Shown: positions 2,418-57,018, numbered from the stretch's first letter. The stretch: 64,000 nt of DNA from a candidate division WOR-3 bacterium (GCA_965649265.1 CBFGKC010000006.1:114975-178974); one strand, 5' to 3'. A program made the numbers and translations. The notes: a model not told the origin generated them from the sequence alone.

Positions 2418-2548
2418 CCGGACCTCCAGTTTTTTTCTCCGCCGTCCGGCGAAGTCCACAAAGATTGAGATAAGGATAATGTATGTCGAAAAGGCTCATT
2501 GTCAAGAGGGGGGAGGGGGCAGTGCCTGGAAGTTTGTTGCATCCGGTA

Positions 2549-7153: not shown

Positions 7154-7294
7154 AGACTGTGTTAAAGGGCTTTGTTCAGCCAGGCAAGGAAAATTCCCGC
7201 CCTTCATGATTTTTAAAAGTAACCCGCACGGTTGATGGTATAAATATCACCACTACTACCTCTGAACAATACCCTTACCTCCTTTCATAAACAA

Positions 7295-13157: not shown

Positions 13158-14459
13158 CTAGCTCGCGTAAGGGAACAGGAACTTTAGCGATGCGCCGAAG
13201 CGGTAGAACTTTTCGGTATACAAATCTTCCTCCAGCCCGAACTTCTTGGACCAGGTCGCGTACTCGAAGGAACTGTTGAGGACAACATACGAAGAGATAG
13301 GTATGCCTATCCCTGCGGTTACACCTTTGAGATACTTTGGTGTGTGCTGGCCTGAGTCGGCCTGCGGGATCGCGTCAAAGTAGAAACCTCCGCGTACTAT
13401 CACAGGCGATACGAATTCGGCACCGAAGCGGAACGTGGAACCGTCGTTCACGCCGAGCCTTGAGCCTAAGGCCTCGACGGCAGTGAAGAAGCGAGTCTGG
13501 AATTCACCTGAAAGATTGAGGAAAGGCAAAATCTTCGACCGCAAACCGACGGTGAAGACGCCGGGCAACATGTAGGCTGTTGAGTCATCTACCTGGTGTT
13601 TTATCTGAATTCCATTAGTGTCCAATACAAGCGTTGAATCAAACCAAGTAATCTCCGTTCCGGAAAGGCTTTCCTCGCCCCATCTCCAGCCCCAGGCTAT
13701 AGGTGATCGATATGAGAAGCTTATACCCAACTGGGGAAAGGGTTCCGCAAACGCGCCTACAGTGAAAAAATTTCCTGTCGAGGAGAAGTTACCTTTGTAT
13801 CTTATTCGTGTTTCATCGTATATACCGGAGGTGTCCCCGTCTTCAATCTCAAGATCATCGTAAACGCTTACTTCGTAATAGCTGCTTTTGAGCTTCTCTA
13901 GTGCGCTGAAGCTGAAGGCCAGACCAATGGAGTAATTGTCCAGTATGCTCATTGCGATCGCCGGGGTTATTACCCTTAAACCGCCGGTTGCGGTATCGGT
14001 CATCTTATAACTTCCGTTTTCGAATTCCCAGTTAATCTCCCTGTTGACGGCATTATCAATATGTAGGTGATAGCCGAAAGCAGGATAGAGCACAGCGTAT
14101 TCCGCGATCTGGATGGGCAAAGCTAAAGAGACGTGTGTGAACTGGGGGATGGTGTTATATTTTGTGTAGTATTGCTCTTCTTGTATCTCTTCCTGGCCGA
14201 AACCCCAGTAAAGCCTTCCGCCGATCTCCATTTCAAGATAATCAGCGTCCAGCAAAAGAGCAGGATTGAAAAAGATGGCGTTCGAACCCTGAGCGCTGAC
14301 CGATCCGGTATTGCCCATGCCGCAGGAACGGACATCCACGACGGTGGGATTAATTGCGTCAACCATAAATGCATAAACGGTTGAATTTACGAAAAATAGC
14401 GGTAACAATACGACCAAAGTCTTAAAGGTCGCTTTTTTTTCAAATCCTGACATGCACAT
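13158..14459 (-). CDS. Putative outer-membrane beta-barrel protein (PorV/FadL-like N-terminal motif)
   Basis: ATG 14459 after GGAGGT (track ORF extends to 14567). Signal-like FKTLVVLLPLFFVNSTVYA. The motif GMGNTGSVSAQGSNAIFFNPALLL resembles the G-x-G-G...NPA motif of PorV/PorQ/FadL-like barrels. Sequence shows alternating amphipathic pattern. Weak family call. Confidence 0.45.
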   Translation of the reverse strand: MCMSGFEKKATFKTLVVLLPLFFVNSTVYAFMVDAINPTVVDVRSCGMGNTGSVSAQGSNAIFFNPALLLDADYLEMEIGGRLYWGFGQEEIQEEQYYTKYNTIPQFTHVSLALPIQIAEYAVLYPAFGYHLHIDNAVNREINWEFENGSYKMTDTATGGLRVITPAIAMSILDNYSIGLAFSFSALEKLKSSYYEVSVYDDLEIEDGDTSGIYDETRIRYKGNFSSTGNFFTVGAFAEPFPQLGISFSYRSPIAWGWRWGEESLSGTEITWFDSTLVLDTNGIQIKHQVDDSTAYMLPGVFTVGLRSKILPFLNLSGEFQTRFFTAVEALGSRLGVNDGSTFRFGAEFVSPVIVRGGFYFDAIPQADSGQHTPKYLKGVTAGIGIPISSYVVLNSSFEYATWSKKFGLEEDLYTEKFYRFGASLKFLFPYAS

Positions 14460-14492
14460 ACCTACCTCCAGGCTTGCCTTTTTTGTATCTAT

Positions 14493-14521
14493 AGTGTATA
14501 CCGAAACATGTGATTTGTCAA
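14493..14521 (-). promoter_or_regulatory. sigma70-type promoter TTGACA-N17-TACACT (minus strand)
   Basis: TTGACA 14521-14516, TACACT 14498-14493, about 30 nt upstream of ATG 14459. Confidence 0.4.
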
Positions 14522-14671
14522 GCCCTTCTGTGAGCTTCTGGTCATCTAAGTCAAGCCAAAAAAACATCTGTAACCGTCAGCCCTCTCAGTCATATCCCGG
14601 CATTGGTCTTACAGACTGAGTTAATTGGAATAATATCCAAATCACAAGCAGAGAAAGATGTGTTACTGAGT

Positions 14672-14968
14672 CCTCCTCAGAAACCTCCTCAGAGCTACCC
14701 CTCAGTCTTCCTTACATCCCCGGCGCTCCTCATTGGATCAGTAATAATGAAACAGCAGAAGCCGGAGGGTTCTGCCAATGCGCCTCCGGCGCTCCTCATT
14801 GGAGAGTAGAAGTAAAATGGCGGAAGCGGAGCTTGCGCCCAGCGCCTTCGAGGCGCTCGCTCTCCTCAGAAATACCCTGACACATGTCTGACACACTGAG
14901 CTAATCTTAGCGGTATGTTTCTATTTATGAGCTATGAGGGAGAAGGGGGGGCAGGAGCCCTCCTCAGA
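14672..14968. repeat. Composite repeat island: CCTCCTCAGA copies plus GC hairpins (GCGCC-TCC-GGCGC, GCGCA/G-GCT-TGCGC)
   Basis: CCTCCTCAGA at 14672 and 14684, with shorter CTCCTCAGA/CCTCAGA copies ending at 14870 and 14968. The segment 14790-14855 is about 85% identical to the 86-bp unit at 51946 and 52078. Confidence 0.75.
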
Positions 14969-15040
14969 GACCTCTCGGTGTCGATTTTACATAATTTTCT
15001 GAGCGGAGTATCTTTCTATTCACGACCAATGAGGGATGGT

Positions 15041-15096
15041 GTGTTACGGGGGGGGGACGGGTGTTACGGGTGGGTGTTACGGGTGGCGTTACGGGG
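15041..15096 (-). repeat. C-rich decamer array (CCCGTAACAC on the gene strand), 4 copies, overlapping the rSAM stop codon
   Basis: Plus strand reads GTGTTACGGG at 15041, 15061 and 15074, and GCGTTACGGGG at 15087. Same motif arrays occur at 48002-48082 and 58790-58832. Confidence 0.8.
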
Positions 15097-16111
15097 CAGA
15101 GAGAATCTGGGCGACGAATGGTTCGGTACCACCGCATTCATTTGCGGCGGCCCGGCACGATGCCCGGCATGTCTCGATATCCTTGCACCCTCTGCACATC
15201 TCCGGTATATCCTCAATGAACTCCTTCCTTTCGGCGGAATCCATCAGCTCCCAGAAACTTTTTTCCCTGATATTCCCGAGAACGAGCGGGGTGTGGTTGC
15301 ACGGACGCAGATTGCCTATGGAATCCACCACCGGGTAGCACTCCTCGGTTCCCGCCGAGCAGAAACCGAAGCCGAGATGCGGGTAGTTCTTAATATCCAC
15401 GAGGCAGCAGGGGATAGGTATCGATACGCTTATGGGGAACCTCTTTTCTACCGCGAACCGCTCGGCTGTGTCGAGCATGAAGAGCACATCCTGGGGGGAG
15501 GGGGAGAGTTCGTCGAGATTCTCGAGTCCCCTTCCGCCGGGATTGAAGCGGTTGAGCATCACGCCGTGCGTACCGAGGCTCCTTGCGAACTCCAGGGTTT
15601 CCCAGAGCCTTGCGAGGTTGATCTTTGTGACGATCAGGGCGACTACAATCTTCGCCTTTGTCGAAAGCACGGCCTCTATCCCTCGAACTGATTTCTCGAA
15701 GCTTCCACTGCATCCCTGCAGGTATTCGTGCTCGTCTGGCCTGTCCGATAGAAGCTGGATCTCGAAAAGAGAGATTCCAGCCCTCACAAGCGTCTTTGCG
15801 AGTTTCTTGTCGAGCGCCTGGCCGTTCGTGATGATGTTGAGCTGAGCGCCCGAGAGTGCGGCCTGAAGCGAGATGTCCACGAGATCGGGTCTCAGAGTCG
15901 GTTCTCCGCCGCTTATCGTGAAGAGTGACGGCTTCGTCTCTTTTAAGAGCTTTGCCAGCATCTCGCGGGTTTCCTTTGGGTTCAAGTCCTCATGTACAGT
16001 TTCCGGATGCTTATGCCAGATGTTGTAGCAGAAGCGGCATTTGAGATTACATCTTTGGGTTACTTCGAAGATGAGGATTTTCTGGCGGCGGTCCCTTAAC
16101 GAATCGTTCAT
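15089..16111 (-). CDS. Radical SAM enzyme with C-terminal SPASM-type auxiliary cluster domain
   Basis: CNLKCRFC (CX3CX2C) at residues 21-28. GGEPTL SAM-binding-like motif. C-terminal FCSAGTEEC...GNLRPC...LGNI...CRGCKDIETCRASC cysteine pattern. The ATG lies 1 nt after the stop of paralog P1 (TAG-C-ATG). Confidence 0.85.
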   Translation of the reverse strand: MNDSLRDRRQKILIFEVTQRCNLKCRFCYNIWHKHPETVHEDLNPKETREMLAKLLKETKPSLFTISGGEPTLRPDLVDISLQAALSGAQLNIITNGQALDKKLAKTLVRAGISLFEIQLLSDRPDEHEYLQGCSGSFEKSVRGIEAVLSTKAKIVVALIVTKINLARLWETLEFARSLGTHGVMLNRFNPGGRGLENLDELSPSPQDVLFMLDTAERFAVEKRFPISVSIPIPCCLVDIKNYPHLGFGFCSAGTEECYPVVDSIGNLRPCNHTPLVLGNIREKSFWELMDSAERKEFIEDIPEMCRGCKDIETCRASCRAAANECGGTEPFVAQILSAP

Positions 16112-16112
16112 G

Positions 16113-16688
16113 CTAATTATCTTCCTTTTTCTCAGTTCCTGACGTATCCGGTTTGCTGACTATTAGTTTTGCCAGGTGAGAGGTTTCAGAATTAAGCGAG
16201 GATATTTTCATGAAGACCCTGACGGTTTCAGGCGGAAGGCCTCGAACATCCAGCCTCGCTTCCAGAAGTTCCGCGGAGCTGTCGAATTTCCCGTCGACCG
16301 GGTCGAGCGATATAATATAAGGTTCAGCATCCGGTCGGCTAACCGCGGCCGTAGCACTGTATATTATGTCACCAGGTATTTCTGTTCTTCCAAGAACCTT
16401 TATAGTTACGGAATCCGCACCCCTGGTCGGGTTGGGATAGATCAAAAGCGAGTCGACAATCTCATCTGCAGGCGGAGAAAAATGAACATAGTAGCAAGTA
16501 ATCGCCGGTTCATAGTGACGGTGTGTCAGACATCCTATGAGCGAAAGTAAGCCTCCTAGAAGAACCAGTTTAAAATGTCTGGTTGTTCTTGAAAATCGGT
16601 TCTTGCTCTCTAAAACCGAAAGAAGATGGAATACTAAACCTCCCGCTCGGCTCAACAACCCTGAGAGCCTATTACGCAACTTGATCAC
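16113..16688 (-). CDS. Array paralog P1 of 12 (numbered by coordinate): anchored Ig-like protein, unknown family, lipobox variant
   Basis: GTG start. MIKLRNRLSGLLSRAGGLVFHLLSVLE. Lipobox-like LIGC. ITCYY. YPNPTRGADSVTIKV. DGKFDSSAE. Acidic tail KPDTSGTEKKEDN. Confidence 0.8.
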   Translation of the reverse strand: MIKLRNRLSGLLSRAGGLVFHLLSVLESKNRFSRTTRHFKLVLLGGLLSLIGCLTHRHYEPAITCYYVHFSPPADEIVDSLLIYPNPTRGADSVTIKVLGRTEIPGDIIYSATAAVSRPDAEPYIISLDPVDGKFDSSAELLEARLDVRGLPPETVRVFMKISSLNSETSHLAKLIVSKPDTSGTEKKEDN

Positions 16689-16717
16689 TGGTCAATATAC
16701 GGCTGATAGGGATGGTG

Positions 16718-17278
16718 TCAATCCTTTTCTTCCGTAGAGTCAGGGTCCGTCACGACAAGCATTAGTTGTTGCGTATACATGCCTGCCTGGGAGGTGTAGA
16801 AGGTCAGGTCCACCCATGTTGTTTCGGAGACAAGCCCTCCGATATAGAACCTCCCCTGAACGGCCTCAAGCGTGTCCGAAAAATCTCCGTCAACCGCATC
16901 GAGAGGCGTAAGAAGCGTGTCTGATGCCAGTTTTATCGTCGCGCCGGTAATGATGTTGCCTTCTATTCCCGGATCGTAAACCTTGGCCGTCGCCTTCACC
17001 GTTACCGTATCCGCGCCTTTTGTAGGATTCGGCGTAATAGCAGCCTCGGTGACTACCACGGGGTCAATTATGGCCATGTCGTAGCAGGTTGCTATGGGTG
17101 TCTCCGGCTGTGCCCTGAGCCAGCCTGCAACAGTCAGAACGAGACCTAAAACGAAGAGCTTGGTCCACCTCGCCGTCTTTTTAATAGTTCCCTCCTCCTC
17201 CCAGCTTGAAAGAACCGGAAGGAGTTTTGCTCCTATCCTCGTTATGAATGATGAAAGCGCGTTTCGAGTCTTAATCAT
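16718..17278 (-). CDS. Array paralog P2
   Basis: MIKTRNALSSFITRIGAKLLPVLSSWEEEG. ARWTKL plus hydrophobic helix ending WLRAQ. ATCYD. TPNPTKGADTVTVKATAKV. DGDFSDTLE. Tail DPDSTEEKD. Confidence 0.8.
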   Translation of the reverse strand: MIKTRNALSSFITRIGAKLLPVLSSWEEEGTIKKTARWTKLFVLGLVLTVAGWLRAQPETPIATCYDMAIIDPVVVTEAAITPNPTKGADTVTVKATAKVYDPGIEGNIITGATIKLASDTLLTPLDAVDGDFSDTLEAVQGRFYIGGLVSETTWVDLTFYTSQAGMYTQQLMLVVTDPDSTEEKD

Positions 17279-17307
17279 GTTTTACTGTACCTCACTTTTC
17301 CGGACTG

Positions 17308-17865
17308 TCAATCTTTTTCTGTCGAATCGGGTTCAGAAATCACAAGCTGCAGCCCTTCAACATTTATGCCTGCCTGCGGGGTGTAGAATGTGATGTAAAC
17401 CCGGGTGGTTTCGGGTCCAAGCCCGGTGACGCACAGACGGCCTTCAACTGTCTCGAGCGTGTCCGAAAACTTGCCGTCGACCGCACGGAGAGGGACAATA
17501 ACCGTATCGCCGCCAATTCTTGCATCCGCTCCGGAGATTATATTGCCTTCAAGTTTCGAATCGTAGACCCTTGCGGTCGCTCTCACCGTAACCGAGTCGG
17601 CGCCATTTGTGGGGTTAGGCGTAATAGCAGCCTCAGTGATTATTACCGGTTCAATGACGACCGGATCATAACAGGTCGCATACCCCCTGGTCTCTTGGGC
17701 CGAGAGCCAGCCTAGTAAGCCCAGGATGAAACCCAGAATGTAGATTTTTGCAAATCTCGCGAATCCCTTAAGAACCCCTTCCTCCTCCCACCTTGAGAGA
17801 AGCGGGAAGAGTTTTGCTCCAACATTGCTTACAAACGCCGCGAGCGAGCTGCGAGCTTTGGCCAT
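17308..17865 (-). CDS. Array paralog P3
   Basis: AAGGAGG RBS. MAKARSSLAAFVSNVGAKLFPLLSRWEEEG. ATCYDP. TPNPTNGADSVTVRATARV. DGKFSDTLE. Tail EPDSTEKD. Confidence 0.85.
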   Translation of the reverse strand: MAKARSSLAAFVSNVGAKLFPLLSRWEEEGVLKGFARFAKIYILGFILGLLGWLSAQETRGYATCYDPVVIEPVIITEAAITPNPTNGADSVTVRATARVYDSKLEGNIISGADARIGGDTVIVPLRAVDGKFSDTLETVEGRLCVTGLGPETTRVYITFYTPQAGINVEGLQLVISEPDSTEKD

Positions 17866-17929
17866 AAAATTCCTCCTTGACTGCGACTACTCCTGTTATA
17901 CAGTTGCAGGTGCAATAAATTCCCTTAAC

Positions 17930-18469
17930 CTATTCGGTTATCTCGATATCTGAGCTGTCTTCGATTACCTTGTTCTTGCTTGTAGATATTCTGACATGGA
18001 CTTTTGCGTTTGCGGTATCGATACCCCTGATGCTTAACTTCGCCGAGATTTCCTCGTATGAACCGTCAAAAGCACTATCCGCAGCCAGCATCTCCACCGT
18101 GTCGGAATTTGCACCTTTCCCGGTAATGAAACACTGTGCCGATTTTACATAATTGTCCTTGGAGCCTGGGATTATATTGGCTCTGGCTTTGACCATAACC
18201 GAGTCGGCTCCAGCCGTAGGATCAGGCAAAACCTCGATATTATGAATGGGGGGAGGTACAGGCTCGTAGCACGTGACCGGGCAGCAGGCGGTCGAGCCGG
18301 CCGCTCCGGAAAGACCTAATCCTGAAACGAGTGCACTCAGGAATGAAAGCTTCATCCACCTTGCAAGCTTGGGTAGTACCCTGCGTTCCTCGCATCTTGA
18401 GTAGAAGTCAAAAAGCGCAAAACCGGCTTTCCTGAGAATCTCGAAAACAATGTGTCTTGCCTGAGCCAT
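17930..18469 (-). CDS. Array paralog P4
   Basis: The track ORF extends to 18547. ATG 18469 (MAQARHIVFEILRKAGFALFDFYSRCEERRVLP) aligns with the other N-termini and removes the overlap with P5. VTCYEP. LPDPTAGADSVMVKA. Confidence 0.8.
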   Translation of the reverse strand: MAQARHIVFEILRKAGFALFDFYSRCEERRVLPKLARWMKLSFLSALVSGLGLSGAAGSTACCPVTCYEPVPPPIHNIEVLPDPTAGADSVMVKARANIIPGSKDNYVKSAQCFITGKGANSDTVEMLAADSAFDGSYEEISAKLSIRGIDTANAKVHVRISTSKNKVIEDSSDIEITE

Positions 18470-18476
18470 GATACTG

Positions 18477-19016
18477 CTATTCTGATTCCGTGATGTACAA
18501 ATCCACTGTCGTGTAATCTCGCTCCCCTTTATTGGAGGTGGCCTCAATGTTTACACTGCAGGTATCGCCTGCGGCAAGATTGCCTACGTATAATCGAGCT
18601 TCTACGTCTTTCATTCCGTATGGATCGGTTTTCGTGACAATCATCGTTATGGTGTCGTCATTAAGAACACATATCACCTTATCCACATAATCTTCTTCTA
18701 TGCTTACTCCATTGGGGACATTTGCGCTCGCTTCAACGGTTACTGAATCTGAGCCTGACGTCGGATTAGGGGTTATTGAGCAGGTTGCGATTTGAGGTTT
18801 CGGGTACTCCATCGGTGCGTAACACGTTATGCAGTTGAGCATGCTGGCCGCACTCAATGCGGTAATTCCTGTCACGAAGGCTCCGAGGAAGGTCGTTTTT
18901 ACCCACCTGGAAGCCCTTGGCAGTATCCCGCAATCCTCACAGTGGGAGAAGAAGTTGAAGAGTGATGTTCCCATTCTCCTCAAGGTTTCAAAGAAGAGGT
19001 AGCGGCTACTGGCCAT
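18477..19016 (-). CDS. Array paralog P5
   Basis: GGAGG RBS. MASSRYLFFETLRRMGTSLFNFFSHCEDCGILPRASRWVKTTFLGAFVTGITALSAASM. ITCYAP. TPNPTSGSDSVTVEA. Confidence 0.85.
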   Translation of the reverse strand: MASSRYLFFETLRRMGTSLFNFFSHCEDCGILPRASRWVKTTFLGAFVTGITALSAASMLNCITCYAPMEYPKPQIATCSITPNPTSGSDSVTVEASANVPNGVSIEEDYVDKVICVLNDDTITMIVTKTDPYGMKDVEARLYVGNLAAGDTCSVNIEATSNKGERDYTTVDLYITESE

Positions 19017-19031
19017 TGTGCCTCCGGTGAT

Positions 19032-19547
19032 TTATTCAGTTATCTCGAGGTCGATTGTTGTATCCGCTCGCTGGTCTTCATTGTCGTATTCTGTGATTTG
19101 TATGGTTACTGTATCGGGCTCGAGGTCTCCTATATACAACTTCGCGTTCACGGCATATTCATTCGTGTAGTCTCCAGGCTCTATCTTCATGACGGTGGTG
19201 TCATTCTCGAGGATACATATCACCTTTTTCAATTCAATCCCGTTATCGGCAATTGCCTTGGCGGAAACGCTAACAGTGTCGGCCCCTGCCGTAGGATTTG
19301 GTGCCACGGAGGCGTTTTCGATTCGAGGTGATTCAATTGGCAAGTAGCAGCCGGTGGGGATACAGTTGATCATGCTGGCCGCGCTCAACGCGGTAATTCC
19401 TGTCACGAAGGCTCCGAGGAAGGTCGTTTTTACCCACCTGGAAGCCCTTGGCAGTACCCCGCATTCCTCACAGCGAGAGAAGAAGTTAAAGAGTGAGGTG
19501 CCTATCCTCCTCAAGGATTCAAAGAAAAAAAACTTTGTTCTAGCCAT
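19032..19547 (-). CDS. Array paralog P6
   Basis: ATG 19547 after AAAGGAGG (track ORF extends to 19580). MARTKFFFFESLRRIGTSLFNFFSRCEECGVLPRASRWVKTTFLGAFVTGITALSAASM. TGCYLP. APNPTAGADTVSVSA. Confidence 0.85.
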   Translation of the reverse strand: MARTKFFFFESLRRIGTSLFNFFSRCEECGVLPRASRWVKTTFLGAFVTGITALSAASMINCIPTGCYLPIESPRIENASVAPNPTAGADTVSVSAKAIADNGIELKKVICILENDTTVMKIEPGDYTNEYAVNAKLYIGDLEPDTVTIQITEYDNEDQRADTTIDLEITE

Positions 19548-19569
19548 GGTTCCTCCTTTCACTGTATTA

Positions 19570-19597
19570 AATATAATCAACTTGCTCGGATTGTCAA
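19570..19597 (-). promoter_or_regulatory. Internal sigma70-type promoter TTGACA-N16-TATATT inside the array (upstream of P6)
   Basis: TTGACA 19597-19592, TATATT 19575-19570, in the 82-nt P7-P6 gap. Confidence 0.45.
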
Positions 19598-19629
19598 TCC
19601 ATGAAAATCACCTGAAATCCTGGCAGGTG

Positions 19630-20157
19630 TTATTTATCAGTAACGCGGAGAACGGTCGAGCCTATGCCCCAGCCTGAGGTTTTTGAATCGACTTTTACAA
19701 AGACCTGAGTGCTGTCCGTTTTGATTTTCTTCACGTATATGCGCCCGATGAGTTCCTCATTATTCTCGTCGAATGCGCCGTCCCTCGCTATCATCCGGAT
19801 GGTGTCTCCATCGACTATGCACTGGGCTGAGGCTATTATTTCGAGATCGCTTGCGTTTTCAAGTCTGGCTTTGGCGGTAACGGTCACCGAGTCGGCGCCT
19901 TTCGTCGGGTTAGGCTTGACTACTATCTCCGAAACCCTGGGATATACGGCCACAGGTTCGTAGCAGGTCACGAGCCCCTGATCCAGCGGAGGTTTTTTGG
20001 CGCATGCCGCAATGATGGTCAGCCACGCTCCAGCAAGCGCGAGCTTGAGCCAGCGTGATATCCTTGGCAGAGCGCTTCGTTCCTCACACCCGGTCAGAAT
20101 GGAGAACAGTGCCGAGCCTGTTCTCCTCAAAAACCTTGACAGTAACTCTCGCTTCAT
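19630..20157 (-). CDS. Array paralog P7, lipobox variant
   Basis: MKRELLSRFLRRTGSALFSILTGCEERSALPRISRWLKL. Lipobox-like IAAC. VTCYEP. KPNPTKGADSVTVTA. ATGA overlap with the P8 stop. Confidence 0.8.
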   Translation of the reverse strand: MKRELLSRFLRRTGSALFSILTGCEERSALPRISRWLKLALAGAWLTIIAACAKKPPLDQGLVTCYEPVAVYPRVSEIVVKPNPTKGADSVTVTAKARLENASDLEIIASAQCIVDGDTIRMIARDGAFDENNEELIGRIYVKKIKTDSTQVFVKVDSKTSGWGIGSTVLRVTDK

Positions 20158-20726
20158 AACGAGTCCTTTTCAGTGATAAATAGCGGTAATGAAACCAGTG
20201 CTTCTTCACCCTTGGAAGTGGCCGCGTGCACGTAGACGAAGGTGGTCCCGGGTTTAAGACCCGCGACGCTGATGCGTGCCTCAATCATCTCGACGGTATC
20301 CGAGAAGCGGCCGTCCACAGGGTACATCCGGATTTTCCTTGACGTATCAATGGCCATTACGAGCCAAGCATCCGACACGTAATTGTTCTCAAGGCCAGGT
20401 TCCAGCACCCTTGCGGTGCCCGTTATCTTGACAGTGTGCACGCCCCTTGTCGGGTTCGGGCTTGCCTGAACTACTGAGATTTCGGGATCCATCCTTCTCA
20501 TCATGTAACATGTGTGGACAGGACCGTCGCCGTCTCCTCCTGGTCCGGGTCTTGCCTTTTTCCCGCACGAGGCTATCAGGGCGACAACGAGCCCGAGTAG
20601 CGAAACCTTCAAAAAGCGCGCGGTCTTTGAAAATATTGGAGTATCCTGGCATCTCGATAGCGCATTAAACACCAGATTACCTGCATTTCTGAGAACTGCA
20701 ATCAAGCTCTTTCTCATCTTTGCCAT
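20154..20726 (-). CDS. Array paralog P8, lipobox variant
   Basis: MAKMRKSLIAVLRNAGNLVFNALSRCQD. Lipobox-like IASC, then Gly/Pro/Asp linker. HTCYM. SPNPTRGVHTVKITG. DGRFSDTVE. Confidence 0.8.
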   Translation of the reverse strand: MAKMRKSLIAVLRNAGNLVFNALSRCQDTPIFSKTARFLKVSLLGLVVALIASCGKKARPGPGGDGDGPVHTCYMMRRMDPEISVVQASPNPTRGVHTVKITGTARVLEPGLENNYVSDAWLVMAIDTSRKIRMYPVDGRFSDTVEMIEARISVAGLKPGTTFVYVHAATSKGEEALVSLPLFITEKDSL

Positions 20727-20745: not shown

Positions 20746-21288
20746 TTAATCTGGTTCAGTAATCACCAGTTCTAAAGATTCAATTTCAATTTGACCGGAA
20801 GAATTTTCTACCTCTAAGTATATCCATGTCGTTTCCGGCTCAAGGTCTCCAACGTAAAGTCGGCCGACTATTCTCTCCGAAGCGGCGTCGAATTTCCCGT
20901 CAATCGCCCGCATGGGGTAATATATTGTATCTCCATCCATTCTCATGCGGGCTGAGCTTATCGTGCTTTCGCCGCTGTAGTGATCGCTAATCTTTGCCGT
21001 GGCCTTGACGGTTACCGAATCGGCGCCCCTTGTAGGGTTAGGCCTTACGGAAAGTTTGGATAGTTCTATGAGGGGAGGGGGGGCGGGCTTGTAGCACATT
21101 ATGACGTCTTCCTTTGCTTCGAGCGAGAGAGCGCTCACGAGTGCCACGAAAAATCCGAGGAATGTGAGCTTCAACCATCTTGCCGCCCCGGGGAGGATGC
21201 GGCGTTCCTCGAATCCGGAAAACGTTCCGAAAAGCCTTCCGCCAATCCTTGCAAAAAAGTCTGCCAGGCGTTTTCTGAGTTCAGGCAT
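20746..21288 (-). CDS. Array paralog P9
   Basis: AAGGAGGA RBS embedded in the P10 tail codons. MPELRKRLADFFARIGGRLFGTFSGFEERRILPGAARWLKL. IMCYKP. RPNPTRGADSVTVKATAKI. DGKFDAASE. Confidence 0.85.
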   Translation of the reverse strand: MPELRKRLADFFARIGGRLFGTFSGFEERRILPGAARWLKLTFLGFFVALVSALSLEAKEDVIMCYKPAPPPLIELSKLSVRPNPTRGADSVTVKATAKISDHYSGESTISSARMRMDGDTIYYPMRAIDGKFDAASERIVGRLYVGDLEPETTWIYLEVENSSGQIEIESLELVITEPD

Positions 21289-21289
21289 A

Positions 21290-21859
21290 TCAATCCTCCT
21301 TATTCTCGTTGCTGTCCGCTTCCGGTGCGGTGATGATTAATTGCCTCCAGGTGCTTTCCGCGTTGCCTGAGTTTGTCCTCACCACTATGTAAATCCAGGT
21401 GGTCTCCGGCTTGTGATCCCCGACGTAGAGACGGCCTTCGACTGTTTCAAGGGTATCGCCGAACTTACCGTCAACCGCTTTCATCGGATATAAAAGGGTA
21501 TCTCCGGTAAGCTGCATAATTGCTTCGGAAACAGCGGTGTCACCTGAGCAATAATATGCAGATTCCAATTTTGCGGTTGCCTTGACTGTAACGGTGTCTT
21601 TTCCTGCAGTGGGGTTCGGTGTTGCCGAGACATCGAAGATACTTAAGTGAGGTTCCTCAATAGGCACGTAGCACATGATGATATCGTCGTCCGCCTTGAG
21701 CGCTGGCGCGCCCAGCAGGGTTACCAGCAATCCCAGAACCGAAAGCTTTAGCCATCTTGCCGGTCTGCGTAGGATACCGCGTTCCTCCAATCCGGACAGT
21801 ATCCCGAATAAGGAGCCGCCTATCCGTGAAGAGATGCGGGCCAGTAAGCCTTTTGTCAT
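21290..21859 (-). CDS. Array paralog P10
   Basis: The ATG directly follows the P11 stop (TAGATG). MTKGLLARISSRIGGSLFGILSGLEERGILRRPARWLKL. IMCYVP. TPNPTAGKDTVTVKATAKL. DGKFGDTLE. Tail EADSNENKED. Confidence 0.85.
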   Translation of the reverse strand: MTKGLLARISSRIGGSLFGILSGLEERGILRRPARWLKLSVLGLLVTLLGAPALKADDDIIMCYVPIEEPHLSIFDVSATPNPTAGKDTVTVKATAKLESAYYCSGDTAVSEAIMQLTGDTLLYPMKAVDGKFGDTLETVEGRLYVGDHKPETTWIYIVVRTNSGNAESTWRQLIITAPEADSNENKED

Positions 21860-22435
21860 CTACTCCTCCCTGGCAGCGCTCGAATCAGCTGCGAGCGAAT
21901 CAATCCTTGTTACGGTGTAGGACTGCCAAAGAATCTCTTCATCTTCTCTGGAACTCGTCACGTCTATAAAGAACCAGTGGGTGCCGGTATCCAGGTCGCC
22001 TGTGTAAAACATGGCCTCAAGAACCTCAAGAGTGTCGTTAAGCTTGCCGTCCACGGCCTTCATGGGAATCCTCAGGGTGTCACGCTGCCTGGAAAGCCAG
22101 GCGTTTCGGATGTAATTGTTCTCAAGGGTCGGGTCCAGAACTTTTGCAGTTACCTTTACTTTTACCGAGTCCGCTCCTCGAGTCGGATTTGGTGTGATGG
22201 ACACATCCGAAATCTTTACCTCCGGCATCCTCATGGCTACGTAACAGGTCTTAATTGTTTCTACCTCGGCGGAAAGTGCTCCGATGGCTGCGGTAAGAAA
22301 TCCAAGCAGTGAGAGCTTTAACCAGCGCGAAGCGCTGGGCACAATCCCGCGCTCTTCGAATCGCGACAGGAGTGAAAAGAGACCTCCTCCCAGCACTTCA
22401 AGAATCCTTACGACGAACCCTTTCGTTCTCGCCAC
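21860..22435 (-). CDS. Array paralog P11
   Basis: The track ORF extends to 22654. GTG 22435 (AAAGGTGGAG RBS, 1 nt after the P12 stop) gives MARTKGFVVRILEVLGGGLFSLLSRFEERGIVPSASRWLKL, matching the family. KTCYV. TPNPTRGADSVKVKV. Confidence 0.75.
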   Translation of the reverse strand: MARTKGFVVRILEVLGGGLFSLLSRFEERGIVPSASRWLKLSLLGFLTAAIGALSAEVETIKTCYVAMRMPEVKISDVSITPNPTRGADSVKVKVTAKVLDPTLENNYIRNAWLSRQRDTLRIPMKAVDGKLNDTLEVLEAMFYTGDLDTGTHWFFIDVTSSREDEEILWQSYTVTRIDSLAADSSAAREE

Positions 22436-22436
22436 G

Positions 22437-23009
22437 TCACTCCACCTTTGTCGAATCAGTCCTGATAGAATCAGGCTCCGAGACTTCAAAATAAAACCAG
22501 CTCGCTTCCAGTGCATCCTGGGATGTCTGGACGAGCATTGAGATCGAGTACTGGCCCGGTTCAAGATTTCCAACGTAAACCGTACCCTCGAGCACCTCGA
22601 GCGTGTCGTCCATCTTGCCGTCAAGTGCTTTGACCTTGAACCTCGTCGTATCACCGTCCCAGGAGAGCCAGGCGTCCTTTATGAAGTTATCCTTGATATT
22701 CGAGTACATCACCTTGGCCTGGGCCTTCACTTTCACCGAATCCGCTCCCTTCGTGGTATCAGGGGTTACGGACTTCTCTGTTATGATGACGTCGGGAATC
22801 CTCGCGACGATGTAGCAGGTGACTTCCGGATCCCTGGCTTGAAGTGAGAGTGTCGCGACTAGCGAGGCTATGATTCCCAGGGTCGAGATCTTTATCCATC
22901 TCGCGGCACGCGGCATGACGCCTTTTTCTTCTATCATTGTCAGAAAATGGAAAATTGCATCTCCCAGTTTCCCTAACAGCCTGGATAAGAGGTTGCGTGT
23001 CTTGGCCAT
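22437..23009 (-). CDS. Array paralog P12 (first gene of the operon)
   Basis: ATG 23009 after AAAGGAG (track ORF extends to 23087). MAKTRNLLSRLLGKLGDAIFHFLTMIEEKGVMPRAARWIKI. VTCYI. TPDTTKGADSVKVKA. DGKMDDTLE. Confidence 0.8.
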   Translation of the reverse strand: MAKTRNLLSRLLGKLGDAIFHFLTMIEEKGVMPRAARWIKISTLGIIASLVATLSLQARDPEVTCYIVARIPDVIITEKSVTPDTTKGADSVKVKAQAKVMYSNIKDNFIKDAWLSWDGDTTRFKVKALDGKMDDTLEVLEGTVYVGNLEPGQYSISMLVQTSQDALEASWFYFEVSEPDSIRTDSTKVE

Positions 23010-23058
23010 CGTCGCTCCTTTAATTCTCAATACAAGAAAACATCTCAAATATTCCCCA

Positions 23059-23086
23059 CAATATAAGCCCCAAAAGACAGGTGTCA
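23059..23086 (-). promoter_or_regulatory. sigma70-type promoter TTGACA-N16-TATATT driving the paralog array
   Basis: Reverse complement reads TTGACA (23086-23081), cctgtcttttggggct, TATATT (23064-23059). About 45 nt upstream of ATG 23009. Confidence 0.55.
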
Positions 23087-23111
23087 AGCATATCTTACGG
23101 GCGGATACTCA

Positions 23112-23224: not shown

Positions 23225-24547
23225 ATGCATCCATTTCTGGTTTTCTGTTGTTGTTTGATTTCATCTTTGACTTGGAATAGACATTATGATTTTCGGTTTA
23301 GTGACCACTGTAGCGCGCTTGTGCCGGTAGAGGACGGTTACGTGATTACGGGTAACACTATGCGGTATCTATTCGTGCAGAAGGTCGATACTCTGGGAAA
23401 TCAAGTCGGTTACAAAGAGTGGTATAAGGCCGAAGGTTATGACATAGAGAGAATGTCTGATGGTTATATTATTCTTGCGTACAAAGACGAATCTCCCAGG
23501 CACGGGATTTGGTTGGTAAGAACAGATAGCGATTTTGACACACTTTGGAGTAGAAGCTATGGATATAATAATGGAATTATGGCAAAATCTCACTCATTTG
23601 ATTTAACAGATGACAGTGGTTTAGTGATGGTCGGTGAGTGCGGCACGGGTCTTATTGTCTTTAAAACCGATAGTCTTGGTGATAGCTCCTGGGTAAAAAA
23701 ATATTTTCAGTCTGTCTCGATGCGCGCTGGGAATTTTATTGAAGAAACATCTGATCAAGGTTTTATTGTTACGGGAGTTTGTGAGGAACGTTTTTTTGCA
23801 CTGAAATTGGATGAGAATGGGGATTCCTTATGGTGTAAGAAATATTTTGAGGAAAAAACAGGTGAAGGTCTTTGTATAAGAGAAACCTCCGACAAAGGCT
23901 TTATAGTATTGGCTAGGATAAGGTATGGTAGTTCGGATTCCTTGCTTCTCATCAAGACGGATTCTTTTGGAAACGCTTTGTGGGTGAGAAAATTCAATTC
24001 GATGTCTCATTGGACTAGAACATGTTATATTGAGGTTCTGGATGATGGTTATGTTATGATTTCAGGGTCACAAGAAGGTCCATTAGTCAGGAAATTTGAC
24101 GAGTCTGGGAATGTCCTTTGGACAAAGACCTACAATCGTAATTTCGGTTATTTTTCCGGATTTGAAGGCACATGTATTCATTACACATCGGATAAAGGTT
24201 TTATTATTGGCACCGCTTTGGATATATCTCCATACGGATCAGACCTCTGGCTGGTGAAAACCGACAGCCTAGGAAACACGGTTCCTCTTGAATCCGTGAT
24301 AGAGCCAACGGAGACTGCCGTTAGCGAAGTTCATCTGAGTGTTTTGAATTCAGCTGTTGCATATTCCTTACCTGCTGGCGAGCGTTGTTTGTTGAAAATC
24401 TATGATGTTAGTGGAGTATTGAAAAAAGGAGAAATTGTTTGTGGCCGCGGAGAGATGCGACTAAAAGAATTCCCTGTAGGGGTTTATTTCGCTGAGTTAC
24501 AGTTCATGCGAAGTGCTGAAATCAAAAAGGTATTAGTTTTTCCCTAG
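23225..24547 (+). CDS. Secreted repeat protein (same ~50-aa repeat family as 2652 and 11732) with T9SS-type C-terminal domain
   Basis: Repeats such as IEETSDQGFIVTG...LKLDENGDSLW and IRETSDKGFIVLA...LLIKTDSFGNALW. C-terminus LLKIYDVSGVL...GVYFAELQFMRSAEIKKVLVFP. Confidence 0.7.
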   Translation: MHPFLVFCCCLISSLTWNRHYDFRFSDHCSALVPVEDGYVITGNTMRYLFVQKVDTLGNQVGYKEWYKAEGYDIERMSDGYIILAYKDESPRHGIWLVRTDSDFDTLWSRSYGYNNGIMAKSHSFDLTDDSGLVMVGECGTGLIVFKTDSLGDSSWVKKYFQSVSMRAGNFIEETSDQGFIVTGVCEERFFALKLDENGDSLWCKKYFEEKTGEGLCIRETSDKGFIVLARIRYGSSDSLLLIKTDSFGNALWVRKFNSMSHWTRTCYIEVLDDGYVMISGSQEGPLVRKFDESGNVLWTKTYNRNFGYFSGFEGTCIHYTSDKGFIIGTALDISPYGSDLWLVKTDSLGNTVPLESVIEPTETAVSEVHLSVLNSAVAYSLPAGERCLLKIYDVSGVLKKGEIVCGRGEMRLKEFPVGVYFAELQFMRSAEIKKVLVFP

Positions 24548-56708: not shown

Positions 56709-57018
56709 AATTTGTGTCCTTGGCCCGGAGGAGCTTCTGGAACCATTCAGGGCCGTCGGGCTTGCCGGTTCGGTTGCGGACAAGAGCAGCGCCCTCGAAC
56801 GGGCAAGAACGCTCGCACAGAGTGAGTACAAGATAGTTTTTTATGACGAGGAATTCTATCCGCTCCTCAAGGATTTTCTCCTTAAGCGACCTGGCGGGGT
56901 TTTCCCAACCTACATCCCCGTTCCCTCTCTTTCCGGAGGAGAACGATACGCCATGGAGCGGCTGAGAGAGTTAATAAAAAAGGCCATAGGAGTTGACGTC
57001 TACTTGGAGGCCAAGTGA
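56692..57018 (+). CDS. atpF: V/A-type ATP synthase subunit F
   Basis: About 105 aa. [19 protein letters not shown]...IVFYDEEFY... pattern. The start is TTG 56692 or 56701, overlapping the atpC stop. Confidence 0.7.

What the first reader, a model, noticed from the sequence alone, without database searches (positions are those of the whole stretch)
16113..20726. Same family split between lipobox-type and signal-peptidase-I-type N-termini
Seen: P1 (LIGC), P7 (IAAC) and P8 (IASC) end their hydrophobic helix with a lipobox-like L/I-x-[GAS]-C. The other nine end in A-x-A-like sites (WLRAQ, WLSAQ, ALSAE, ALKAD, SLQAR and similar). Inference: members of one array may be lipid-anchored, released or helix-anchored. 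That would place the same ectodomain type in different envelope locations.
Basis: partly seen in the sequence, partly recalled or inferred. Interest (0 to 1): 0.35.

Follow-up and report, generated by a model that had tools for sequence, protein, structure and literature searches.

The report
Radical-SAM-linked secreted proteins with mixed anchors
Twelve tandem genes encode small secreted Ig-like proteins with unusually long export signals (three or more lipoprotein-type, the rest ordinary cleavage-type), and all carry an invariant Cys-Tyr motif that is probably modified by the adjacent, undescribed radical-SAM enzyme before export.

Summary
P1 (LIGC53), P7 (IAAC52) and P8 (IASC54) end a short hydrophobic segment with a canonical lipobox. 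P2, P3 and P9-P12 end in x-A|polar sites. P4-P6 are ambiguous because they have both an LSA|A site and Cys residues downstream (P4: STAC62).

The split is not chance (shuffle P=0.002). It is kept in orthologous arrays of three other genomes despite synonymous changes, and it maps onto at least three ectodomain clades.

The hydrophobic segment is preceded by a conserved, basic, amphipathic extension of about 38-40 aa, so no member is a textbook signal peptide. No predictor could be run.

The larger point is different. In 7 of 7 TA06/WOR-3 loci the array (1-17 copies) is directly followed by one radical SAM/SPASM gene. Relatives of that enzyme at 41-44% identity in Chloroflexi, Planctomycetota and Myxococcota sit downstream of unrelated exported proteins that share only the motif T-C-Y-x-P, which is invariant in the window family.

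Most likely this is an undescribed rSAM maturase that acts on exported proteins before export, loosely like anSME with sulfatases. Anchoring type is a secondary, lineage-stable variable. The chemistry is unknown.

The parts
22437..23009 (-). P12, first gene of the array. AXA-type: h-region ISTLGIIASLVATLSLQA|RD. CY at residues 65-66.
21860..22435 (-). P11 (GTG start). AXA-type: ...AAIGALSA|EVE. CY at 64-65.
21290..21859 (-). P10. AXA-type: ...LLGAPALKA|DDD.
20746..21288 (-). P9. AXA-type: ...VSALSLEA|KED. This member was modelled with AlphaFold2 (pLDDT 84): helix 2-28, helix 33-56, coil 57-73 containing C65-Y66, then a beta-sandwich from 74 to 176.
20154..20726 (-). P8. Lipobox-type: RFLK-VSLLGLVVALIAS-C54-GKKARPGPGGDGDG. 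Its stop codon overlaps the P7 start (ATGA).
19630..20157 (-). P7. Lipobox-type: RWLK-LALAGAWLTIIAA-C52-AKKPP. It also has a second, probably spurious LTGC24 inside the N-terminal helix.
19032..19547 (-). P6. Ambiguous: ALSA|ASMINC-IPTG-CY. Both a signal-peptidase-I-like site and Cys residues just before CY.
18477..19016 (-). P5. Ambiguous: ALSA|ASMLNC-IT-CY. This is the same type as the single-copy genes of loci L001, L005 and L013.
17930..18469 (-). P4. Ambiguous: LSGA|AGSTAC62-C-PVT-CY.
17308..17865 (-). P3. AXA-type: ...LLGWLSA|QET.
16718..17278 (-). P2. AXA-type: ...TVAGWLRA|QPE.
16113..16688 (-). P1 (GTG start), last gene of the array. Lipobox-type: RHFK-LVLLGGLLSLIG-C53-LTHRH. Its stop codon lies 1 nt before the rSAM ATG.
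15089..16111 (-). Radical SAM/SPASM enzyme, 340 aa. It has CX3CX2C plus a Cys-rich SPASM domain and no RRE/PqqD domain. It is the proposed maturase acting on the T-C-Y-x-P motif.
23058..23087 (-). Promoter-like site upstream of P12: TTGACA-16-TATATT (23087-23060), with an overlapping TTGACA-18-TATTGT match (23087-23058).
   Evidence: consensus match only
19570..19597 (-). Promoter-like TTGACA-16-TATATT upstream of P6.
   Evidence: consensus match only
16694..16721 (-). Promoter-like TTGACA-16-TATATT upstream of P1 and the rSAM gene.
   Evidence: consensus match only

Best explanation
The array encodes 12 diverged copies of a small exported protein with four parts:
- a conserved, basic, amphipathic N-terminal extension (residues 1-40, ending in the R37-[WF]-x-K40 motif, in which K40 is invariant and R37 nearly so);
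- a short hydrophobic segment of 12-16 residues;
- a flexible linker with an invariant Thr-Cys-Tyr-x-Pro-type motif, 23-26 residues after K40 in 11 of 12 copies;
- one Ig-like beta-sandwich domain.

Shown: the array is always followed by one particular radical SAM/SPASM gene. That enzyme clade is specifically associated, across phyla, with exported proteins that share nothing but the TCYxP motif.

Inferred, step 1: the cytoplasmic rSAM enzyme modifies the invariant Cys, or the Cys-Tyr pair, on the precursor before export. By analogy the chemistry is either a thioether cross-link or Cys C-beta oxidation of the formylglycine type.

Inferred, step 2: the N-terminal extension acts before cleavage. 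It would work as a leader or hold-back element that recruits the enzyme or delays Sec export. This is the role the Tat signal could play in the Chloroflexi partner family.

Inferred, step 3: the extended signal is then removed. Lgt/Lsp would act at the lipobox in P1, P7 and P8 (possibly also P4-P6), giving lipid-anchored proteins. Signal peptidase I would act at x-A| in P2, P3 and P9-P12, giving soluble periplasmic or secreted proteins.

The same modified ectodomain type would therefore be delivered both tethered and untethered.
For: 1. The array-then-rSAM order holds in 7 of 7 loci that extend far enough. Copy numbers are 12 (window), 1 (L001), 9 (L002), 1 (L005), 12 (L007, one of them N-terminally truncated), 17 (L010) and 1 (L013). 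P1 and the rSAM gene are separated by 1 nt.

2. The rSAM forms a tight orthogroup (66-100% identity) in TA06/WOR-3, followed by a large clade at about 41-44% identity. I examined seven loci of that clade, of which L015 and L016 carry the same gene set, so six are independent (L015/L016, L017, L018, L098, L099, L100, L101). In every one the upstream gene or genes encode exported, non-homologous proteins with 1-3 copies of [VPAI]-T-C-Y-[EDA]-[PM].

3. In 13 such partner proteins, 22 of 38 Cys are followed by Tyr, against 0.66 expected.

4. An independent Chloroflexi partner family has the motif in 120 of 120 members and a Tat-like RR signal in 117 of 120.

5. As a control, 52 loci with rSAM/SPASM genes at 22-31% identity have no such motif in 52.8 k upstream residues. 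Within the window the motif occurs only in the array.

6. C65 and Y66 are invariant in all 26 aligned members and lie in a coil outside the Ig domain. Relatives of the Ig domain in giant repeat proteins match mostly from about residue 70 onward, so they lack the motif.

7. The N-extension is more conserved than the ectodomain among paralogs. This also holds in lipobox members, where it would be cleaved off (0.38 against 0.32 identity). It carries a net charge of +3 to +8 and is amphipathic. The K40-to-CY spacing is fixed.

8. The lipobox is conserved through synonymous change and forms clades. Canonical lipoproteins occur elsewhere in the window. The AXA members have hydrophobic segments of 14-16 residues and Ala at -1 in all orthologs.
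Against: - There is no biochemical evidence of any modification, cleavage or lipidation.
- The enzyme has no recognisable leader-binding (RRE) domain, so a leader role for the N-extension is only an inference.
- The lipobox Cys at residues 52-54 violates the position rule of standard lipoprotein definitions. Extended n-regions of about 40 aa are rare, so Lgt/Lsp or signal peptidase I processing might not occur.
- Among the few CY-lacking or Cys-lacking relatives, some keep or lose these features: P0040 keeps a lipobox but has TYY in place of TCY, while P0042, P0069 and P0030 resemble lipobox types that lost the Cys or have Phe at -1.
- Gene adjacency plus motif sharing is strong but still correlative.
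- SignalP and LipoP were not available.
Confidence: 0.55

Rival explanations
1. All members are uncleaved N-in/C-out (type II) membrane proteins. The conserved N-terminal helix would be a permanent cytoplasmic domain, and the lipobox-like and AXA-like endings would have no processing role.
For: - The N-extension is conserved and basic, which suits a cytoplasmic domain.
- AlphaFold draws helix 33-56 as one continuous helix.
- The long n-region is atypical for cleaved signals.
- P4-P6 have 20-28 uncharged residues after K40.
Against: - Hydrophobic segments of 12-16 residues in nine members are short for a stable anchor.
- The lipobox I-[AS]-[AS]-C-[AG]-[KR]-[KR] is kept by purifying selection in three orthogroups and several genomes.
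- Ala at -1 is universal in the non-lipobox class.
- A permanent cytoplasmic domain would not need a fixed spacing to an extracytoplasmic CY.
Confidence: 0.17
2. The rSAM/SPASM gene is only a neighbour, for example a cofactor-biosynthesis enzyme. The invariant Cys-Tyr would be structural (a disulfide, metal ligand or oligomerisation contact) rather than an enzyme target.
For: - The best NCBIfam scores are to heme and PQQ-type rSAM enzymes, all far below their cut-offs.
- There is no RRE domain.
- No direct evidence of modification exists.
Against: - The pairing holds in 7 of 7 family loci, and in all six independent distant loci examined the partners are non-homologous and share only TCYxP.
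- 120 of 120 members of a further partner family carry the motif.
- 52 control loci carry none.
- Several partners have no Cys outside their CY motifs (for example L100_2712 and L015_3801, both of whose Cys are in CY motifs), and the AXA-class members have no second conserved Cys, so a conserved intramolecular disulfide is unlikely.
Confidence: 0.1
3. The paralogs are subunits of a surface fibre or coat. Lipidated members would serve as membrane anchors and non-lipidated members would polymerise, with the rSAM-modified Cys forming the inter-subunit link. This loosely resembles type V pili, whose subunits I recall being made as lipoproteins.
For: - Arrays hold 9-17 diverged Ig-like subunits of mixed anchor types.
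- The invariant Cys lies in a flexible N-terminal linker.
- A FadL/PorV-like outer-membrane protein sits downstream in close relatives.
- Whole-model fold hits include archaellins, which also combine an N-terminal helix with a beta domain.
Against: - Single-copy loci exist (L001, L005, L013), so polymer heterogeneity is not required.
- The outer-membrane protein is not conserved across the family.
- There is no prepilin-type cleavage motif: no Gly at -1 and no Glu at +5.
- The fold hits are generic Ig-like matches with TM-scores of 0.3-0.4.
Confidence: 0.06
4. The lipobox strings are chance by-products of a Cys-prone, small-residue-rich region and have no functional meaning.
For: - The region between the hydrophobic segment and CY is Cys-rich in many members (NCITCY, ACCPVTCY, SCCY).
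- P7 also has a presumably meaningless LTGC24.
Against: - The shuffle test gives P=0.002, and the background rate is 1 match in 14,302 residues.
- Cys at column 54 is present in 81% of the lipobox class and is not among the common residues at that column in the others. It is coupled to K/R at +2 and +3.
- The pattern is conserved despite synonymous codon changes in four genomes.
- It is clade-coherent.
Confidence: 0.04

Closest known systems
Anaerobic sulfatase-maturating enzyme (anSME) with Sec/Tat-exported sulfatases
   Same: A radical SAM/SPASM enzyme without a leader-binding RRE domain modifies a Cys in a short linear motif near the N-terminus of full-size exported proteins, some of them lipoproteins, in the cytoplasm before export (established knowledge). 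anSME is the best solved-structure match for the SPASM region of the window enzyme (4k37, E=8e-10).
   Different: The target motif here is T-C-Y-x-P, not C/S-x-P/A-x-R. The substrates are Ig-like or helical proteins, not sulfatases. The enzyme is far from any anSME model: the match is to the SPASM region only, and no anSME model appears among the 25 best NCBIfam matches listed, all of which are far below cut-off. The product chemistry is unknown.
TIGR04133 (rSAM_w_lipo) radical SAM/SPASM family; I recall it as paired with a lipoprotein family (TIGR04134)
   Same: The concept matches: a radical SAM/SPASM enzyme genetically paired with a putative lipoprotein substrate.
   Different: The window rSAM scores 83 bits against a cut-off of 425. 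The three array members scanned (P2, P8, P9) match no NCBIfam model at all. This is not the same family.
QhpD/QhpC (rSAM thioether cross-linking of the quinohemoprotein amine dehydrogenase gamma subunit) and sactipeptide or ranthipeptide synthases
   Same: These are SPASM enzymes that use a Cys thiol as cross-link donor on a ribosomal substrate that is later exported (established knowledge). StsB and PapB models give weak hits.
   Different: All scores are far below cut-off. There is no conserved acceptor residue besides the adjacent Tyr. The substrates are folded-domain proteins in arrays, and there is no dedicated protease or ABC exporter nearby.
Extended signal peptides (ESPR of autotransporters; Tat signals with chaperone proofreading)
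   Same: A conserved N-terminal extension in front of an otherwise ordinary n-h-c signal, thought to slow or gate export (established knowledge for ESPR and Tat). The Chloroflexi partner family of the same rSAM clade uses Tat signals in 117 of 120 members.
   Different: There is no Pfam ESPR hit. The window family has no twin arginine, since R37 is single. The extension here is a 28-residue amphipathic helix followed by a G-x-L-P turn.
Bacterial lipoprotein signal peptides (Lgt/Lsp substrates; PROSITE PS51257)
   Same: P1, P7 and P8 have a basic residue, 12-14 uncharged residues and [LI]-[IA]-[GAS]-C. Their lipoboxes look like those of canonical lipoproteins in the same window.
   Different: The Cys lies at residues 52-54 rather than 15-35, because of the conserved extension.

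Membership tests
Lipoprotein signal peptide (SPase II; PROSITE PS51257-type rule as I recall it) | Lipobox [LVI][ASTVI][GAS]C directly after an uncharged h-region. | tested here: met
   P1 LIGC53, P7 IAAC52 and P8 IASC54. P4 STAC62 meets the looser PS51257-style pattern only.
Lipoprotein signal peptide (SPase II; PROSITE PS51257-type rule as I recall it) | Cys within about residues 15-35, with a short basic n-region. | tested here: not met
   The Cys is at 52-54 and the n-region is 38-40 aa. The rule would be met only if counting started near R37.
Lipoprotein signal peptide (SPase II; PROSITE PS51257-type rule as I recall it) | Actual diacylglyceryl modification and Lsp cleavage (globomycin-sensitive). 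| not testable with these tools
   Needs experiment. LipoP and SignalP 6 were not available.
Sec signal peptide cleaved by signal peptidase I | h-region of about 7-15 residues, followed by small or aliphatic -3 and small -1 residues, with no Pro at -3 to +1. | tested here: met
   P2, P3 and P9-P12 have h-regions of 14-16 residues with L/S at -3 and A at -1. This is conserved in orthologs.
Sec signal peptide cleaved by signal peptidase I | Short n-region (a few residues). | tested here: not met
   The n-region is 38-40 aa, conserved and amphipathic.
Tat signal peptide | Twin-arginine motif (S/T)-R-R-x-F-L-K. | tested here: not met
   The window family has A/S-R37-[WF]-x-K40 with a single Arg. 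In contrast, 117 of 120 Chloroflexi partner proteins have RR.
Type IV pilin / archaellin class III signal | Short basic leader ending in Gly (or Ala), cleaved before a hydrophobic helix of about 20 residues, usually with Glu at +5. | tested here: not met
   There is no such motif. The only conserved Gly (G45) lies inside the h-region. The archaellin fold hits are weak.
anSME / sulfatase maturation | Target motif C/S-x-P/A-x-R in a sulfatase domain. | tested here: not met
   The motif here is T-C-Y-x-P and there is no sulfatase domain; the array proteins have no Pfam hit.
anSME / sulfatase maturation | rSAM core CX3CX2C plus a SPASM domain with auxiliary cluster cysteines and no RRE domain. | tested here: met
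   Pfam Radical_SAM covers residues 16-176 and SPASM covers 260-310. The Cys pattern is invariant in alignment A3. Nothing precedes residue 16.
TIGR04133 (rSAM_w_lipo) radical SAM/SPASM family | The enzyme reaches the TIGR04133 cut-off, and the partner matches a lipoprotein model. | tested here: not met
   83 bits against a cut-off of 425. The three array members scanned (P2, P8, P9) have no NCBIfam hits.
RiPP precursor/maturase pair | Short precursor peptide with a leader bound by an RRE/PqqD domain. | tested here: not met
   The substrates are 171-191 aa with a folded Ig-like domain. No RRE or PqqD domain was detected. A leader-like role for the N-extension remains an inference.
ESPR extended signal peptide (PF13018) | Match to the ESPR profile. 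| tested here: not met
   No Pfam family at E<0.1 for the three array members scanned (P2, P8, P9).

The most novel reading that the evidence does not exclude
A previously undescribed radical SAM/SPASM protein-maturation system spans several phyla (TA06/WOR-3, Chloroflexi, Planctomycetota, Myxococcota). It installs a modification on the Cys, or the Cys-Tyr pair, of a T-C-Y-x-P motif in proteins destined for export. In TA06/WOR-3 it acts on expanding arrays of Ig-like proteins. Their 40-aa N-terminal extension would be a leader that couples modification to export. A lipobox-or-AXA switch would then send the modified domain either to a membrane or into solution.
Probability: 0.45. Interest if true: 0.8.

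Novelty: new variant of a known kind. Interest (0 to 1): 0.6.

Why it matters
A single invariant dipeptide links hundreds of otherwise unrelated exported proteins in at least four phyla to one uncharacterised radical SAM/SPASM clade. If the link holds, this would be a new post-translational modification of secreted proteins, with a simple and directly testable substrate motif (T-C-Y-x-P).

It also gives a natural experiment on sorting. Within one operon the same modified domain is produced with lipoprotein-type and ordinary cleavage-type signals, each behind an unusually long conserved leader. Standard predictors and PROSITE-style rules are likely to misclassify such signals.

For annotation, it defines a new protein family, a new rSAM subfamily and their functional coupling in poorly known candidate phyla.

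Tried and rejected
- **Pfam and NCBIfam on array members** gave no hit at all. For the rSAM they gave only sub-threshold hits to many SPASM families: AhbD 112 bits against a cut-off of 500, GeoRSP 102 against 400, TIGR04133 83 against 425. No known system applies.
- **Tat signal** was rejected, because there is a single Arg.
- **Type IV pilin or archaellin-like class III signal** was rejected for lack of the motif. The fold hits are generic Ig-like, with TM-scores of 0.3-0.4.
- **The CY Cys as the real lipidation site** was rejected. The -1 residue is T, M, D, R, H, N or L across the family, and charged residues separate it from the h-region in the AXA class.
- **An internal start codon giving a short canonical signal** was rejected. 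The N-extension is conserved at protein level, and the ribosome-binding sites sit before the long forms.
- **The FadL/PorV/BamG-like outer-membrane protein (13158-14567) as a core component** was rejected. It is present only in L002 and L007, and absent after the rSAM in L001, L005 and L013.
- **Homology between the N-extension and the N-termini of the Planctomycetota and Myxococcota partners** (RGPRWKRRL between two hydrophobic helices) was tested with a profile of residues 1-70. Only the TCY motif and part of the h-region align, so homology is not established.
- **The metagenome scan with the rSAM alignment** returned mostly distant SPASM enzymes at 22-31% identity. I reused them as a negative control.
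- **Literature searches** for the motif, and for SPASM with lipoprotein, Tat or Cys-Tyr terms, found nothing relevant.
- **SignalP and LipoP** are not installed, so only rule-based checks were possible.

Full report
**What is there**

Between 16113 and 23009 the minus strand carries twelve intact, tightly packed paralogous genes, P12 to P1. Their products are 171-191 aa after trimming the starts, and most genes have an AGGAGG-type ribosome-binding site. The finding's coordinates (16113-20726) cover only P1-P8.

All twelve proteins share one architecture:
- a conserved N-terminal segment of 38-40 residues (consensus MAKTR..L...L.R.G..LF.FLSRCEERG.LPRAARW.K);
- a hydrophobic segment starting right after the invariant K40;
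- a short linker containing an invariant Cys-Tyr (C65-Y66 in P9 numbering);
- a domain of about 110 residues beginning ...PNPT.GADSVTV.

An AlphaFold2 model of P9 (mean pLDDT 84) gives helix 2-28, a turn at G-x-L-P, helix 33-56, a coil from 57 to 73 that contains CY, and a six-strand beta-sandwich. Structure searches return only generic Ig-like folds.

**Checking the observation**

P1 (LLSLIGC53), P7 (LTIIAAC52) and P8 (VALIASC54) do end a stretch of 12-14 uncharged residues with [LI]-x-[GAS]-C. The quoted AXA-like strings are also present, in P2, P3, P10, P11 and P12, and P9 has SLEA|K.

Two corrections apply.
- P4, P5 and P6 are ambiguous. After an LSGA|A or ALSA|A site the chain stays uncharged and contains further Cys residues immediately before CY. 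P4 has STAC62-C-PVT-CY, which matches the PS51257-style lipobox pattern. P5 has MLNC-IT-CY and P6 has MINC-IPTG-CY.
- Because of the N-terminal extension, the lipobox Cys sits at residues 52-54. As I recall it, the PROSITE PS51257 rule expects residues 15-35.

The split is not chance.
- Shuffling residues 41 to CY within each protein yields three or more strict lipoboxes in 0.2% of 2000 trials.
- The lipobox pattern occurs once in 14,302 internal residues of other long ORFs in the window.
- The organism uses ordinary short lipoprotein signals elsewhere in the window, ending LAAGC, LLAGC and LSSC.

**Relatives**

The family is rare. A profile search of 5.8 billion proteins found 19 clusters, from candidate divisions TA06 and WOR-3 (Stahlbacteria) and unnamed MAGs. 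An exhaustive HMM search found about 45 full-length representatives at the 50% clustering level. It also found many giant surface proteins in which only the Ig-like domain (from about residue 70 onward) recurs as tandem repeats, next to Big, PKD and Y_Y_Y domains. The N-terminal module with the CY motif is therefore a separate unit fused to a generic adhesin-type domain.

Syntenic arrays occur in other genomes, with 9 copies (L002), 12 (L007, one N-terminally truncated) and 17 (L010). TA06 B3 (L001) and two WOR-3 MAGs (L005/L011 and L013) have a single copy.

The lipobox state is inherited.
- W_P8, L002_4282 and L007_2226 all keep I-A-[AS]-C-[GA]-K-[KR].
- W_P7, L002_4851 and L007_2819 keep the same pattern.
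- W_P1, L007_6331 and P0045 keep L-I-[GA]-C.
- L010 has six clear lipobox members.
- The codons differ synonymously (ATA/ATC/ATT, GCC/GCT/GCG/GCA, TGC/TGT), which indicates purifying selection.

In a neighbour-joining tree of ectodomains alone, the lipobox members form at least three coherent clades. Of 82 members collected, 18 are clear lipobox types, 10 have a lipobox-like Cys abutting CY, and 54 are AXA-type. The single-copy loci are all of the P5 type (ALSAASMLNC-IT-CY), which suggests that this is the ancestral state.

In the non-lipobox class Ala at -1 is universal. The h-region is 14-16 residues, which is short for a stable anchor and typical of cleaved signals.

**The N-terminal extension**

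The extension carries a net charge of +3 to +8 and forms a strongly amphipathic helix (muH 0.47-0.70). Both properties are consistent with a cytoplasmic location before export.

Among paralog-level pairs it is more conserved than the ectodomain: 0.42 against 0.35 identity. This also holds for pairs involving lipobox members (0.38 against 0.32), where it would be removed by Lsp. That argues that it works before cleavage.

The distance from K40 to CY is almost constant. It is 23-26 residues in 11 of 12 members, regardless of class.

**The partner enzyme**

A 340-aa radical SAM/SPASM gene (15089-16111) starts 1 nt after the P1 stop codon. It has CX3CX2C, a full Cys-rich SPASM domain and no RRE domain. 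It reaches no NCBIfam equivalog cut-off. Its best solved relative is anSME, and that match is to the SPASM region only.

In all seven family loci that extend far enough, the array is directly followed by this gene.

Its homologs fall into a tight TA06/WOR-3 group at 66-100% identity, followed by a large clade at 41-44% identity in Anaerolineae/Chloroflexi, Planctomycetota, Myxococcota and others. I inspected seven loci of that clade. L015 and L016 carry the same gene set, so six are independent. In every one, the gene or genes immediately upstream encode exported proteins unrelated to the window family. They are helical proteins with Tat signals, proteins with two N-terminal hydrophobic helices, or Pro/Thr-rich repeat proteins. 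They carry one to three copies of the same motif, for example APITCYEPM, LPVTCYAPL, PGPTCYDMP and PPPTCYAPA.

The numbers are as follows.
- In 13 such proteins, 22 of 38 Cys are followed by Tyr, against 0.66 expected. The consensus [VPAI]-T-C-Y-[EDA]-[PM]-[MA] equals the window family's [IV]-T-C-Y-x-P-[VAI].
- A search with one Chloroflexi partner returned 243 clusters. All 120 sequences examined carry TCYE[PA]-type motifs (129 CY observed against 9 expected), and 117 have a twin-arginine signal.
- As a control, 52 loci with more distant SPASM enzymes (22-31% identity) have no such motif in 52,821 residues of upstream ORFs.
- In the 64-kb window the motif occurs only in the array.
- Neither the enzyme clade nor any partner family has a Pfam or NCBIfam model. 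Four literature searches found nothing.

**Interpretation**

Shown:
- a discrete, conserved split between lipobox and AXA endings;
- a conserved long N-extension;
- an invariant CY at fixed spacing;
- obligatory synteny with one rSAM/SPASM clade, whose other neighbours share only the TCYxP motif.

Inferred:
- The cytoplasmic enzyme modifies the Cys, or the Cys-Tyr pair, before export, as anSME does for sulfatases.
- The N-extension is a leader or export-delay element. The Tat signals of the Chloroflexi partners point to the same need for post-translational export.
- The precursors are then processed by Lsp or signal peptidase I according to the ending, yielding tethered and untethered forms of a modified Ig-like protein.

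The chemistry is unknown. A thioether cross-link and formylglycine-type oxidation are the closest precedents.

The 'helix-anchored' class has no positive support.

**Comparison with known systems**

The system works most like anSME with sulfatases, and conceptually like the TIGR04133 rSAM family that I recall as lipoprotein-paired, or like QhpD with QhpC. It fails the defining features of each (motif, family cut-offs, substrate type).

The signals resemble lipoprotein and Sec signals locally but fail the n-region length criteria. They are not Tat, ESPR or prepilin signals.

I classify the whole as a new variant of a known kind, namely an rSAM/SPASM protein maturase with cognate exported substrates. 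The split in N-terminal type is a real but secondary feature.

Noticed in passing
window 23058-23087, 19570-19597, 16694-16721, 17284-17311 (minus strand): Near-consensus sigma-70-like sites recur inside the array, upstream of P12, P6, P1 and P2. Three are TTGACA-16-TATATT and one is TTGACA-16-TACAGT. Subsets of the array, and P1 together with the rSAM gene, may be transcribed separately.
   Followed up: no
window 18829-18995 vs 19360-19526: The 5' 167 nt of P5 and P6 (N-extension plus h-region) are 92% identical, while the rest of the two genes has diverged. This looks like gene conversion, or a recent duplication followed by ectodomain diversification.
   Followed up: partly
window 19630-20157 (P7), residues 1-24: P7 has a second lipobox-like string, SILTGC24, inside the N-terminal amphipathic helix, at the position standard rules expect. 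It could mislead LipoP or PROSITE-type predictors. Relatives have S-R-C or S-G-C at this column.
   Followed up: partly
window 13158-14567 (minus strand): A FadL-like outer-membrane beta-barrel with weak BamG, PorV and FilD similarity lies downstream of the rSAM gene. It is conserved only in the closest relatives (L002, L007) and not across the family.
   Followed up: partly
L015:993-5844, L100:2712-4004, L101:1674-3985: The Planctomycetota and Myxococcota partner proteins of the rSAM clade start with a hydrophobic helix, then a basic loop RGPRWKRRL, then a second hydrophobic helix, sometimes ending LGLPAC. The RW.K/R element resembles R37-W-x-K40 of the window family, but homology could not be shown.
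   Followed up: partly
L099:4430-4996: This partner protein has three tandem PTCY[AE][PA] motifs embedded in a Pro/Thr-rich low-complexity linker. The motif therefore works as a portable module.
   Followed up: no
P0020, P0044, P0046 and other giant proteins: The Ig-like ectodomain (residues about 70-178) recurs up to 10 times in proteins of 1000-4000 aa, together with Big_7, Big_13, PKD, Y_Y_Y and DUF2271 domains. No Pfam model covers the domain itself.
   Followed up: partly
P0040, P0042, P0069, P0030 (family representatives): Natural variants exist. P0040 keeps a lipobox (LITAC) but has TYY in place of TCY. P0042 (ISVFAKK) and P0069 (ISGYGKK) look like lipobox types that lost the Cys. P0030 has ITAFC, with Phe at -1.
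   Followed up: no
window 978-2459, 4886-7207, 44725-46359: Several large proteins end in FlgD_ig or Por_Secre_tail-type C-terminal domains, which mark type IX secretion cargo. The host is therefore a diderm of the FCB group with a T9SS. PolA (33999-36530) and a V/A-type ATPase subunit (57015-58787) show that this is chromosomal DNA.
   Followed up: no
window 14915-15691 (plus strand): A 258-aa ORF lies antisense to the rSAM gene. It is most likely a spurious product of GC-rich coding sequence. No support for it was sought.
   Followed up: no
L001, L002, L005, L007 upstream of the arrays: A divergently oriented half-size EamA-family membrane protein (139-148 aa) precedes the array in four other loci. 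It is absent at that position in the window, where a 440-aa beta-propeller-like gene (23225-24547) sits instead.
   Followed up: no
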